This document shows, piece by piece, positions 8,046 to 23,990 of a stretch of DNA of 64,000 nt. This DNA comes from Octopus vulgaris. Its lineage: Eukaryota. The translations under genes and the position numbers were made by a program. Under the pieces are notes generated by a model. It was given only the letters and a program-made list of their open reading frames with translations. It was not told where the DNA came from and did not search any database. The stretch lies in assembly GCA_951406725.2 (NCBI GenBank), contig OX597825.1:38812001-38876000 (forward strand), written 5' to 3'. The first letter of the stretch is position 1, and every line of letters starts with the position of its first letter.

Positions 8046-8330
8046 TATAGTAAAATCCCAAAACGAGGAACAAAGAACAACAACAAAAAACAGCTGGAGG
8101 ACGTGGAACGTGCAAAGTATTAGCAAACGCTCAGGGAAGGAAAGAAAGGTGGTTTTACGTTTCGAGCAAAGCTCTTCGTCAGAAATAGGAGCCAGAGGAA
8201 ACGTTCAAGAGAATAGGAAGGAGAAAAAAAAACTCCAACGATCCACATATGGTTACATTTTCAAAGGGCCGGAAGGGAATGGGTGAAGAAAGAGTTCTTT
8301 CTAAGAACGAAGAGTGTAAAAGAAGGACTT
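8046..8330 (-). mobile_element. Penelope-type terminal repeat fragment carrying a hammerhead-like motif
   Basis: Homologous to 19500-19760 (-) and 23540-23730 (+), both of which lie next to GIY-YIG-like remnants. Confidence 0.6.
8124..8186 (-). ncRNA. Hammerhead ribozyme-like motif (type I, partly degenerate)
   Basis: Minus strand reads tttCTGACGA-a-GAGC ttt GCTC-GAAACG-[pyrimidine-rich loop]-CGTT; core boxes and stem II intact, stem I mismatched. Confidence 0.6.
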
Positions 8331-8962
8331 ATCTGTGTGCTTGTGTGGTTATGTGCGTGCGCGCAAGTCTGTGTGTGTAATAGTATGTGTGCATGTGTGT
8401 GTGTGTGTGCATGTGTGTTTGTGTGGGTGTGTGTGGGTGTGTTGTGCGGTGTTTGTGTGGTGTGGGATGTTTATATGTGTATGTGTCAGTGAACAAGAAT
8501 TCAACATTTGACATACGAAATTTTATTAAAAACTTTCAGAGTAAACCGTGTTCTACGTGAGAAATTTTACCAGTATCCGAAGTTTCAAACTGTTAAAGAA
8601 AATAATTTAAAAATCTGTGATTGAGATGGAATATATCTTGTAATTGCATGCGTTTTCGCTTCTCGTTGAGTTCTACATCTAGTTGTGGTGTCCTGTACTC
8701 ACGTATATACATTTATATATGCATGTATATATACATGTAGATGTAGGTACGTACATATATGTTTGTATGTATGCATATATTTTATTTATTACACTATATA
8801 TATATATATATATACACACACATATATATATATATATATATATATATATATATATATATATATATTTTATTGGGATTTTACTATAGACACACACACACAC
8901 ACACACACACACACACACACACATATATATATATATATATAGATATATATATATCTATACAC

Positions 8963-9820
8963 GAGTGGCTTTGTGGTGATTAGCTTGCTTACCAACCACA
9001 TGGTTCCAGGTTCAGTCCCACTGCATGGCACTTTGGGCAAGTGTCTTCTTCTATAACCTCAGTCCGACGAGCGGATTTTGTAGACGGAAACTGAAGGAAG
9101 TCCGTCGTATGTATACTCTTTTACTCTTTTACTTGTTTCAGTCATTTGACTGCGGCCATGCTGGAGCACCGCCTTTAGTCGAGCAAATCGACCACGGGAT
9201 TTTGTTGTAAGCCCAGTACTTATTCTATCGGTCTGATTTGCCGAACCGCTAAGTGACGGGGACGTAAACACATCAGCATCGGTTGTCAAGCAATGCTAGG
9301 GGGACAAACACGGACATACACATACATATATATATATATATATATATATATATATATACGACAGGCTTCTTTTAGTTTCCGTCTACCAAATCCACTCACA
9401 AGGCATTGGACGGCCCGGGGCTATAGCAGAAGACACTTGCCCAAGATGCCATGCAGTGGGACTGAACCCGGAACCATGTGGCTGGTTAGCAAGCTACTTA
9501 CCACACAGCCACTCCTGCGCCTATATATATATAATATATATATGTATGTGTGTGTGTGTGTGTGTGTGTGTGTGTGTGTGTGTGTGTGTGTGTGTATGTG
9601 TGTGTGTGTGTGTTTGCGTGTCTGTTTTTGTCTTCCCAACATTGCTTGACAACCGATGCTGGTGTGTTTACGTCCCTGTCAACTAGCGGTTTGGGAAGAG
9701 TTGCCGATAGAATAACTACGAGGCTTACAAAGAATTAGTCCTGGGGTCGATTTCCTCGATTAAAGGCGTTGCTCCAGCATAGCCGCTGTCAAATGACTGA
9801 AACAAATAAAAGAAAAAAAG
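8963..9820 (+). mobile_element. SINE family A host copy (head 8963-9110, 3' half ~9620-9820), split by a nested copy
   Basis: Head ends gaagtccgtcgtatgtata; 3' half (tgcttgacaaccgatgctgg...aaatgactgaaacaaataaaag) resumes after the insert and microsatellite. Confidence 0.85.
9116..9521 (-). mobile_element. Full-length SINE family A, nested antisense
   Basis: Reverse complement has complete head (ggcgcaggagtggctgtgtggtaagtagc), internal (TA)n and tail ending aagtaaaagagtaaaagag. Confidence 0.9.
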
Positions 9821-20250: not shown

Positions 20251-23200
20251 AGCAGTGACCGAAAAGCAGAGAGTTTCCCTCATTGTCACTTATACGGACC
20301 AACGCACGAAATTCTCGGCCCCTGCATCATTCCGTTGATTCTGATAAATATATATAACTATATACATACATGCATACATACATATATATGTATGTATGTA
20401 TGTATGTATGTATGTATGTATGTATGTATGTATGTATGTATGTATGTATGTATATATGTATATATACATATGTATATATGTATATGTATATATATATACA
20501 TTTATATATATATATATATATATATATATATATGTGTGTGTGTGTGTGTGTGTGTGTGTGTAGCTTACAGAGAAAAATTACCGGTGATCGGCTCACTCCC
20601 ATTCAGGTAATCGAATTATATTTTCTTAGTTGTTATAGGGGATTTCTTAAAATAGGTGTCAACGTCCAATTAGTACAAATAATTTTCTACCTGTAGTTTA
20701 TATTCGCCTAAATACTCGACGCACCGTCCAATCCAATGCATTTGAAGTATTCTGAAGCGACCCGACTAATAAATTATTGACCCGGCACATGATTATTTAC
20801 ATATATATATATATATATATATATATATATATATATATATATATATATATATATATTGCTTTGTTTTGTTTTGCTTCATCTTTTAAGCGTTTCATTGTTC
20901 CTCAAAAAAATTTGCGTATGCGAAAACCACTGGGGAAATAGTTTTTCGGTTACTATGGGTCAAATGTAGAAGAAAAAATATGTTTTATGTCTTTAGGCCG
21001 CAAATTCCGAAGTTTCAAGATCATATTTTGCTAATCATATCCAATCTATTTTTGACATAGAAGCTGAAGAAAAGAGGAATATATATACTCTTTTGAAAAA
21101 TACAATGATCTTTGAATGTCTATTTATGTGTTATATCTCTGTTTCATATTCTCTGATGTTATTCGTGAAAGTAAATTTTCACATGATGTGGCAGAACGCG
21201 TTTCGTTGCGGGAAACCTAGTCAGTTAATGAATATTGCGCTTTGATGATCAAAACATGCCTTTTATTTATAAGGAAAATGTTATTAAAATTCATGTTATA
21301 CATGGAGCCTAATGAAGGAAAGATCCATCAACAAACCCATATCGATTTATTCTCTCGAAGACCTTGCTAACATCATGAATTTAAAATCCTAAAGCCATGA
21401 TTTTGGGATTTAGAAATTTACCCTATTATGAAAAGACTTTTCGTGATAGCATAACACTTAAATGACATCTGAGGTCAGTGAGATTGAATAGAATTCTAGA
21501 AAAAAAGTGATGCAGCATTGTTAATTCGAATGCAAGATTGCGATAGACAATGGTTAAAAGTTGTGTATAAGAATAATCTCAAGAGTTCAACTGAAGTAAA
21601 TGCAAGTTCGAGCGAATCTGATATGGGCTTTATGTTCATCCCTGTTTAATTTCATTAATTGCTCTGCACCAAAAATTATGTCAGCGTCATACTTTAGCGG
21701 TTGTTTCCATTAATACTCTATTACAAAGTATCTGAGTCATCAAGGAAAATCACCATTGTTTACTTCATTCGCATCATCTTGCAAGATGCGTTTTTATCAA
21801 TCAGAGAAACGTTGAGTAGAACAGCAGCCCTAAATTTACTGATAAATTAAATGAACACACTTGAAAGTTGATGATATTCATGCTCCATTGAAGAATATCT
21901 ACACACACACATACACACACGCCGGCGCGCGCGAACACAAAATATATACACACTCATACACCTATACGTATATAAATATATATATGTATATATATATATA
22001 TATATATATATATATATATATATATATATATATATATATATATGTATATGTACATATAAATATGCGTATATGTGCGTGTGTTTACATATACACACACACA
22101 CACACACACACACACATATATATATATATATATATATATAAATGTATATATATATATATATATGATCATATCTTTATATACGTATGTGCATGTATGAGTA
22201 AATATTTATATATATATATATATATGCATATATATATATATATATATATATATATATATATATATATATATATATATATATATGTGTGTGTGTGTGTGAG
22301 TGAGTGTGTGTGTGTAAGTGTATATACATATGAGTGTGTGCGCGTGTAAGTGTGTAACCAAAATTGTTTTGATCAAATAATAGACTAACGTTAGGTTCAG
22401 GGCAATTTATTATTTCTACACTGCATCAGTTGTCTTAGCTTTGGGAATAAATGTTTGTGAAAGAAGTAAATAAGGCTGATAACCCATTAAAACTAAACTA
22501 TGGTCACAAAAGGTCAAGCAATTATCTATTTTCATCTATCTCTCTTTTCTGTATCGATATATCTTTCCGCTTGTATTCCTATCGATATCTGTACCTAGGA
22601 ATAGATGTTTTTCAGATATAAATATTAAGCTAGATTGACCCCAAATATAAATTACGCTAATATTGATAGAGTATGTTACTATTTTGATATAAACTGATGA
22701 TAATGCGTTGCAAACATATAGGAAGTATGAAGCATAGATTTTACAGTCCATAGTGGTTCTACATATATAACAGAAATAGTATGTACTACTATATGCATTA
22801 CCCCACTCGCTTACCATATATGTATTATCTTCCTAGAAATACACATACTATATATTATGCTCTATTCCTCGCTCACAAAATACTAACCATCAGGAATCCC
22901 CTTACAATGGATTCCTCCCTCTCTCTCTCACTCCTCCCTCAATCCCTTTCTCTCCCCATCAATTTCTCTCTGTCTCATTATTTTCTGTCTACAATCAAGA
23001 TATTTCCAACTAAACCTCAGTATCATTATACAAGCAACCTCAAAACTTTCTGCACAGGTCTTAGTTCCTCAATCGTTAGAGTACTCTACGGAATAGAATT
23101 ACAGTTTTCTGTTACATAATAACTGTTGTTAGAGAGAGTAATGTCGATCTATTTCTGCTGAGGGTGTTTTATTCCATTCTTTCCTCATTGAAGTGTGATG

Positions 23201-23539
23201 GTGAAACGTTCTATATACGACATGATCCTCTGCAGTTCTTAGTACGTGGCAACCAGTTTTTAATTTTCCAATATAACTTATGGCTATTATGTGTAGTGGA
23301 AGTTGATTCGCTCGAATTTAACAAAATAGTTCCCCTTCATATATAGTCTTGTTCCCTTGTACACCACTGGATAGGAAAGTAAGAGACAAGATTCAATTCA
23401 CAAAGCTTAAAAGGTTTGAGAAATAATCGAACTGCGCATCAATATTAAACATTCACACACACACACGCACAAATACAGATACAAACACACTCATATATAT
23501 ATATATGTATGTATGTATGTATGTATGTATGTATTTATG

Positions 23540-23990
23540 TAATCGCACAAATGCTTTCCTTGGGCATTTTTTTCCTTTCTCTCAGGAACTTACCTCTCTC
23601 CAGGTTCTGATTAAGAGACATGCTCGAATCGTCAGCCCCACCCTTTTCCCCATCTTATTCTGAGCGTCAAACAAATATATTACATGTGTACAACCTTTTG
23701 ACTTTTGTTGTTTTGCTATTTTTATTTCCACTTATCGAAGCTATCTGCCATGTGCATCTTTAACAAGAATAACCGTAGTTATGGTTAATCTTAGTCATTC
23801 GTGTTATATATGTATACCTATGCATGTGTGTTGCGAGGTCAAATCGAATATGGTCGTACCGCCCTCCTTCTTTCACACAACCCACCTCTTACTTCCTTCA
23901 AATGCACCCGCGACCTATGCGACTTACTGTTCCGTAGCTTTCTCCCCTCCCCTTTTCCCAACCTTCTTGGATCCTTTATATAAAATTTGT
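23540..23990 (+). mobile_element. Penelope-like fragment: hammerhead-like motif (23603-23672) plus segment homologous to 20045-20170
   Basis: ggttCTGATTAagagacatgctcGAATCG...CGTCaaac; 23850-23960 (ggtcgtaccgccctcc...gacctatgcgacttac) is the inverted homolog of 20045-20170. Confidence 0.6.

What the first reader, a model, noticed from the sequence alone, without database searches (positions are those of the whole stretch)
8124..23672. Three dispersed hammerhead-ribozyme-like motifs whose consensus rebuilds a full catalytic core
Seen: copies at 8124-8186 (-), 19603-19677 (-) and 23603-23672 (+). Each has different lesions, but together they give uuu-CUGAYGA-a-GAGC(loop)GCUC-GAAACG-[~35-45 nt pyrimidine-rich loop]-CGUC-aaa. 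Established: hammerhead core CUGANGA/GAAA/NUH; minimal type I hammerheads occur in Penelope-like terminal repeats; an extra A after A9 occurs in the CChMVd hammerhead. Inference: a PLE or non-autonomous retrozyme-like family with an unusually long loop III and very short stem I. Two copies lie beside GIY-YIG remnants. These individual copies are probably inactive.
Basis: partly seen in the sequence, partly recalled or inferred. Interest (0 to 1): 0.72.

Follow-up and report, generated by a model that had tools for sequence, protein, structure and literature searches.

The report
Penelope retrotransposon ends with minimal hammerheads
The three motifs are worn end-pieces of a very abundant Penelope-type jumping gene and carry that group's known tiny hammerhead RNA motif, which is predicted to cut only when two copies pair, so this is ordinary and the proposed long-loop ribozyme is likely a misreading.

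Summary
The three motifs are real (51-137 bits against a family profile, at most 1.7 in shuffles). They belong to one repeat superfamily: 5,964 exact core matches in this 2.8-Gb genome against 1 in the control. Relatives carry the motif downstream of an RT + GIY-YIG ORF, and one full element has two terminal repeats 99% alike, so these are Penelope-like element (PLE) ends, not retrozymes. The cleavage triplet follows GAAAC directly (GAAAC-GUH, palindromic ACGU, no loop III). Its stem I covaries between subfamilies; the distal 'long loop' strand shows no covariation and is broken in several. This is the published dimer-type minimal hammerhead, and the extra A is its known hallmark (PMC4209133). 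Read so, copy 1 is intact; copies 2 and 3 have core lesions. One residue of interest: a conserved downstream GCG...TAATAC block is unexplained, and in the old lineage of copies 2 and 3 it gives a formally complete second register. The scan has already reported octopus PLE hammerheads on other DNA many times. Cleavage is untested.

The parts
8022..8494 (-). Copy 1: 5'-truncated 3' end (3' UTR tail and pLTR) of a subfamily B Penelope-like element, ending in a (CA)n(TA)n tract
   Evidence: blastn to L062 and L063, 78%; 40 relatives scored at 80-85%; relatives L061/L062 continue 1.6-1.7 kb upstream into the endonuclease tail
8152..8186 (-). Copy 1 minimal hammerhead, formally intact: stem I UUU 8185-8183 with AAA 8155-8153, CUGACGA 8182-8176, extra A 8175, stem II 8174-8164, GAAA-C-GUA 8163-8156; predicted cut between 8156 and 8155 in a dimer
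   Evidence: sequence; only hit of the generic descriptor; covariation in relatives
8117..8133 (-). Copy 1 conserved downstream block (GAGCG...TAATAC); no stem I possible in this register
   Evidence: first distal stem I pair in 1 of 29 subfamily B copies
19541..19749 (-). Copy 2 pLTR, old subfamily C (long spacer)
   Evidence: 51.6 bits; relatives 68-78%
19643..19677 (-). Copy 2 hammerhead relic: A6 to G, A14 to U, U16.1 to C, mismatch in stem II; likely dead
   Evidence: sequence against subfamily copies
19595..19612 (-).
19803..19900 (-). 3' UTR remnant of the copy 2 element
   Evidence: blastn to L123 and L105, 71-74%
19978..20190 (-). PLE ORF remnant: linker between RT and endonuclease, upstream of copy 2 on the same strand; GIY-YIG motif itself not detected
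   Evidence: blastn to L108 (E 2e-19), L123, L167, L105; tblastn only E 0.18; no Pfam hit
23534..23745 (+). Copy 3 pLTR, old subfamily C (long spacer)
   Evidence: 85 bits; relatives 72-82%
23603..23637 (+). Copy 3 hammerhead relic: G8 to U, A15.1 to U, mismatch in stem II; has a copy-specific 4-bp proximal stem I (GGUU/AGCC); likely dead
   Evidence: sequence
23661..23678 (+). Copy 3 downstream block (GAGCGUC-AAAC...)
23847..23977 (+). Second PLE linker remnant, downstream of copy 3, 86% identical to 20036-20167 in inverted orientation

Best explanation
The three motifs are decayed terminal-repeat ends of a Penelope-like retrotransposon superfamily, and each carries the known minimal hammerhead motif, which is predicted to cut after the GUH next to GAAAC only when two copies pair through their palindromic ACGU. 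Shown: the repeat family, its position downstream of an RT + GIY-YIG ORF, 5' truncation of copies, covariation of stem II and of the proximal stem I. Inferred from published PLE work: in a tandem transcript two motifs swap strands, ACGU pairs with ACGU to form helix III, and slow or protein-assisted cleavage trims the precursor; cleavage may be dispensable for insertion. Inferred: the window copies are lone neutral relics; copy 1 could cut only with a partner, copies 2 and 3 not at all.
For: 5,964 exact core matches against 1 control; 15,601 against 6 for a wider pattern. Homology among copies ends at a fixed 3' point and runs to variable 5' points. Endonuclease tail upstream on the same strand in subfamily B (L061, L062); RT/EN remnants upstream in 4 of 66 subfamily C copies, flanks limited to 1.5 kb; full element L127+L063 with two repeats 99.4% alike around an ORF with RVT_1 (E 9e-6) and GIY-YIG (E 0.004) hits, both under the curated cut-offs. 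Proximal stem I pairs 1-4: A 26,24,23,24 of 26; B 27,27,27,23 of 29; D 4,4,4,3 of 4; E1 12,14,13,11 of 14; E2 15,16,16,14 of 16; E3 7,7,7,5 of 7; G 24,25,16,20 of 28. On 28 hand-picked rows: proximal stem I 85% paired, 2 of 4 pairs with two-sided changes (pair 4 C-G/G-C/U-A, pair 3 U-A/C-G); distal stem I 56%; long stem III no two-sided change. N17 varies among A, U, C in subfamily majorities, never G. Matches the min-HHR of PMC4209133.
Against: No cleavage or RNA-end data. In the long-spacer C lineage (copies 2 and 3) proximal pair 2 holds in only 9 of 57 and pair 4 in 1 of 57. Nearest-neighbour energies do not favour the dimer over two free hairpins in A, B or C (medians -3.2, -2.5, +4.5 against -7.8, -7.8, -5.0 kcal/mol; copy 1 -2.5 against -7.8); they do or nearly do in D and E. 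Covariation rests on about three lineage-level events, and cells count sequences, not events. Pair 3 in G is mixed (16 of 28). The largest subfamily (E) carries U at core position 6, which argues for weak selection on catalysis. No full-length element of B or C itself was recovered. The downstream block is left unexplained.
Confidence: 0.85

Rival explanations
1. Two-register hammerhead: the conserved downstream GCGUY strand is a second, in-cis substrate arm. It would close a 4-5 bp helix III around a 15-40 nt pyrimidine loop and allow monomer cleavage; the long-spacer C lineage (copies 2 and 3) would have switched to it.
For: GCG is invariant in all nine subfamily majorities while the spacer varies from 15 to 40 nt, also in sister family G, whose stem II differs. 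D, E1 and short-spacer C have UUU/AAA(G) in both registers. Long-spacer C keeps distal pairs 1-2 in 52 and 54 of 57 while losing proximal pair 2. A 2-bp helix I is described in D. virilis, and fungal and protist PLEs have monomer hammerheads with long helix III (PMC4209133).
Against: No two-sided change in the long helix III. First distal stem I pair absent in A (0 of 26) and B (1 of 29); pair 2 absent in E2 (0 of 16); U16.1 lost in E3 (1 of 7), which includes the intact-looking full element. The fold lies 7-17 kcal/mol above the MFE at the median and helix III has about zero ensemble probability (0.10 in E2). Distal pair 3 in long C holds in only 14 of 57.
Confidence: 0.1
2. The downstream block is a lock, not a substrate: GCGU pairs with the ACGU palindrome and hides the dimer contact and the cut site until protein or a partner opens it; or it is a sequence-specific site for the PLE protein or for transcription.
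For: C-G, G-C and U-G pairs are possible in 28 of 28 rows even where U16.1 or stem I is lost. The anole PLE hammerhead cuts only with protein present (PMC11167929). This is compatible with the best explanation.
Against: Invariant letters say nothing about pairing; ensemble probability near zero.
Confidence: 0.3
3. Non-autonomous retrozyme: a short tandem, protein-free RNA circle family mobilised in trans.
For: Most copies are short and lack an ORF within 1.5 kb; retrozymes are proposed to derive from PLE pLTRs (10.64898/2026.07.22.740005).
Against: Same-strand core pairs in the fetched loci are nearly all of mixed subfamilies and only L203 has two alike, in another family; 5' ends are variable and run into PLE ORFs.
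Confidence: 0.04

Closest known systems
Minimal type I hammerheads (min-HHR) in pLTRs of metazoan Penelope-like elements (Cervera and De la Pena 2014, PMC4209133)
   Same: CUGANGA, one extra nucleotide before G10.1, G10.1-C11.1 pair, GAAA, palindromic 15.2-16.2 with no loop III, 3-5 bp helix I, thousands of dispersed single copies in variable subfamilies, few within full elements
   Different: Helix II is 4 bp (7-8 bp in the Schistosoma families); a conserved downstream GCG...TAATAC block that can form a second register was not seen in the parts read; sister subfamily E has U at position 6
PAc Poseidon element of Anolis carolinensis (Frangieh et al. 2024, PMC11167929)
   Same: pLTR hammerhead; genomic copies extend past the cut site, as expected if uncut RNA is the template
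   Different: Here the ORF starts about 0.8 kb after the hammerhead in the full E element, and the linker has a C-X4-C-XX-C motif as described for Neptune/Nematis (PMC8557442); clade not tested by tree
Fungal and protist PLE hammerheads with long helix III (PMC4209133)
   Different: Those have a large stable helix III; here it would be 4-5 bp around an unpaired pyrimidine loop, with no covariation
Non-LTR retrozymes (PMC7229834, search listing only; 10.64898/2026.07.22.740005)
   Same: Type I hammerhead in a non-coding repeat
   Different: Retrozymes are tandem short units; these are dispersed, 5'-truncated ends of coding elements

Membership tests
EN+ Penelope-like element | Single ORF with RT and C-terminal GIY-YIG endonuclease upstream of the repeat | tested here: met
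   Sister subfamily E: L127+L063 (Pfam hits below curated cut-offs; one frameshift). B: endonuclease tail in L061/L062. C: 4 of 66 copies and window 19978-20190
EN+ Penelope-like element | Direct terminal repeats (pLTRs) that hold the hammerhead | tested here: met
   Two 314-nt repeats, 99.4% identical, each with the motif, in the E element; not recovered for B or C themselves
EN+ Penelope-like element | Placement in a named clade (Neptune, Nematis, Poseidon) by RT phylogeny | not tested
   Only the linker cysteine motif was seen; no reference set on hand
PLE minimal hammerhead | Core CUGANGA / GAAA / UH with an extra nucleotide between 9 and 10.1 | tested here: met
   Subfamily majorities A-D and G, and copy 1; copies 2 and 3 individually fail; E has U6
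PLE minimal hammerhead | Helix II and helix I supported by compensatory changes | tested here: met
   Helix II GAGC/GCUC against GGAC/GUCC; helix I pairs 3 and 4; helix I not met in long-spacer C
PLE minimal hammerhead | Palindromic, loop-less helix III | tested here: met
   ACGU in all nine subfamily majorities
PLE minimal hammerhead | Self-cleavage as a dimer | not testable with these tools
   Needs an assay; energies alone are mixed
   56% paired helix I, no two-sided change in helix III; lost in A, B, E2, E3; inconclusive for long-spacer C alone
Non-LTR retrozyme | Tandem short non-coding units, each with a hammerhead | tested here: not met
   only fetched loci of about 3 kb were examined, not the whole genome

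The most novel reading that the evidence does not exclude
This superfamily carries a hammerhead with two alternative substrate arms, a near one for dimer cleavage and a far one for monomer cleavage, and lineages have lost one or the other; the lineage of copies 2 and 3 switched to a monomeric long-loop ribozyme. It would be a natural switch between dimer-dependent and monomeric cleavage inside one retroelement family.
Probability: 0.1. Interest if true: 0.6.

Novelty: new member of a known kind. Interest (0 to 1): 0.2.

Why it matters
As it stands, little: another set of PLE terminal-repeat hammerheads, a class described in 2014 and met often by this scan. The subfamily series (A6 and U6 cores, near and far arms kept or lost) is a ready panel for the open question of whether PLE hammerheads need to cut at all. 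If the far arm proved to work, it would show a retroelement escaping the need for tandem copies in processing its RNA.

Tried and rejected
Rfam scan: nothing relevant among the 150 listed matches, all microsatellite noise. The repeat finder on the window was swamped by simple repeats, and self-blast did not link the three copies; a profile did. Anti-stem-II helix (GCUCG with the distal YGAGC): looked good in eight subfamilies but rejected, because sister family G changes stem II without changing the distal block (pairs 2 and 3 in 5 and 3 of 27; 329 of 500 shuffles reach its covariation score). Searches for further stem II variants returned mostly single-copy mutants, apart from L231, which led to G. 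The ORF in L063 was first taken as subfamily B's; one search showed it belongs to an E element. The C set was filtered on the distal strand and so biased; it was recounted without that filter (83 loci, 70 cores, 62 anchored, 8 dropped). One search used 121 of 128 cores (7 dropped as another family, duplicate, or lacking an anchor). In alignment A3 one row (L172) lacks its upstream bases. Lunse et al. 2017 is not held, so its variants could not be compared; supplements of PMC4209133 were not read and may list mollusc examples. Paper searches 'octopus + hammerhead ribozyme' and with 'cephalopod' listed no paper devoted to these motifs; the scan's notes held nothing on a distal register or near this place. 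A 3' splice-site reading of the pyrimidine tract plus AG was considered and dropped untested (G at -3 is a rare acceptor; recalled).
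Full report
Observation. A profile from 128 distinct genomic copies, two of the window's own among them, finds these three and nothing else in the window (137, 85 and 52 bits); shuffled windows reach 1.7 bits. The window is microsatellite-rich animal DNA of a 2.8-Gb genome. That it is an octopus is my recall of its SINE and the label of earlier scan notes, not a test.

The family. 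The core pattern has 3,057 + 2,907 exact matches in the genome against 0 + 1 for the reversed control; a wider pattern has 15,601 against 6. Fetched copies sort into subfamilies by the loop of stem II and the flanks: A, B (window copy 1), C with short or long spacer (copies 2 and 3, long), D, E1-E3 and a sister family G. Median divergence from the sample majority is 7.6% in A, 11% in B, 18.5% in C, 4.9% in E2 (small samples, partly chosen by likeness to window copies). Copies share a 3' end 150-200 nt past the motif and have variable 5' ends. Long B copies run 1.6-1.7 kb upstream into the tail of a GIY-YIG endonuclease (L061, L062). Four of 66 C copies have RT or endonuclease remnants upstream on the same strand within 1.5 kb. 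One E element is full length: two 314-nt repeats 99.4% alike, each with the motif, around an ORF with weak RVT_1 and GIY-YIG hits and one frameshift. These are terminal repeats of Penelope-like elements.

Which fold. But GAAAC is followed at once by GUA, GUU or GUC and then by a strand that pairs with the bases before CUGA. In that near register helix I has four pairs in most copies of A, B, D and E and G (24, 25, 16, 20 of 28). Pair 4 is G-C in A and B, C-G in D and E, U-A in G; pair 3 turns C-G in part of G; helix II changes on both sides in G. On 28 hand-picked rows helix I is 85% paired in the near register and 56% in the far one, and the long helix III shows no two-sided change. The far register lacks its first helix I pair in A (0 of 26) and B (1 of 29), its second in E2 (0 of 16), and U16.1 in E3 (1 of 7). 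The long-loop fold is 7-17 kcal/mol above the minimum-energy fold at the median. The near register leaves ACGU, a palindrome, as helix III: the minimal dimer hammerhead of Cervera and De la Pena, who also list the nucleotide between 9 and 10.1 as a conserved trait (PMC4209133; parts 1-2 of 4 read, no supplements). Read so, copy 1 has no core lesion and is the single hit of a generic descriptor (5 of 50 shuffles gave one). Copy 2 has A6G, A14U and U16.1C; copy 3 has G8U and A15.1U.

Against this reading. The covariation reflects about three lineage events. Energies do not favour the dimer over free hairpins in A, B or C, which fits the low activity reported for such motifs but does not show cleavage. 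A helix against stem II was tested and rejected by family G. What remains: a second substrate arm (about 0.1), a lock on the ACGU palindrome, or a protein or promoter site.

Mechanism. Shown: repeat family, PLE context, 5' truncation, helices I and II. Inferred from papers: two motifs in a tandem transcript swap strands and cut slowly after GUH (PMC4209133; PMC6765202, passages). In the anole element the hammerhead cut only with protein present, was not needed for insertion in vitro, and no RNA reads ended at the site (PMC11167929; part 1 of 4 and passages); this fits copies that extend past the cut site here. The window copies are likely neutral relics.

Comparison. It works like, and by the tested features is, a metazoan PLE minimal hammerhead; cleavage is the untested feature. 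It fails the tests for a retrozyme (10.64898/2026.07.22.740005, part 1 of 5 read) and, family-wide, for a long-loop monomer. The linker cysteine motif resembles Neptune/Nematis (PMC8557442, passages); no tree was built. The abundant E subfamily has U at position 6; a natural A6C variant is slow (PMC3088659, passages), and the scan has already noted A6U in this genome and others. Two paper searches listed no paper devoted to cephalopod PLE hammerheads; Lunse et al. 2017 could not be read.

Verdict.

Noticed in passing
L127:2883-3195 and L063 (G000:C2:55929400-55934200, minus strand): Full-length young subfamily E element: repeats 99.4% identical, ORF with one frameshift, core with U at position 6 while position 7 varies freely between E sublineages; E dominates the first 100 listed of 15,601 matches. 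Already noted by the scan.
   Followed up: partly
L021, L036, L048, L080, L105, L126, L165, L181, L189: A copy of subfamily E or A sits 200-600 nt downstream of a copy of another subfamily on the same strand. All share ACGU, so mixed dimers are formally possible; it may only reflect a shared microsatellite target.
   Followed up: no
L242-L271: Old sister family G with stem II GGAC/GUCC and helix I UUCUU/AAGA; no ORF remnant found within 1.5 kb upstream.
   Followed up: partly
window 20036-20167 (-) and 23847-23977 (+): The two PLE linker remnants are 86% alike, closer than to any other locus found (68-77%), and inverted; perhaps one insertion event with an inverted piece, later split by other insertions.
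   Followed up: partly
window 3510-3968 (+): Open frame that resembles the thumb region of a PLE reverse transcriptase by eye (recalled motifs); no Pfam hit.
   Followed up: partly
window 53399-54856 (-), 42690-43070 (+), 51806-52159 (-): Other transposon relics: LINE with zf-RVT, RVT_1 fragment, mariner-type DDE transposase.
   Followed up: partly
L027:1475-1525, L203, L230:915: Hammerhead cores of unrelated repeat families; L203 has two alike copies 485 nt apart.
   Followed up: no
subfamilies A and C: In some copies (L025, L172, L174) the predicted monomer fold pairs the core UGACG with the near CGUY strand, an inactive extended hairpin.
   Followed up: no
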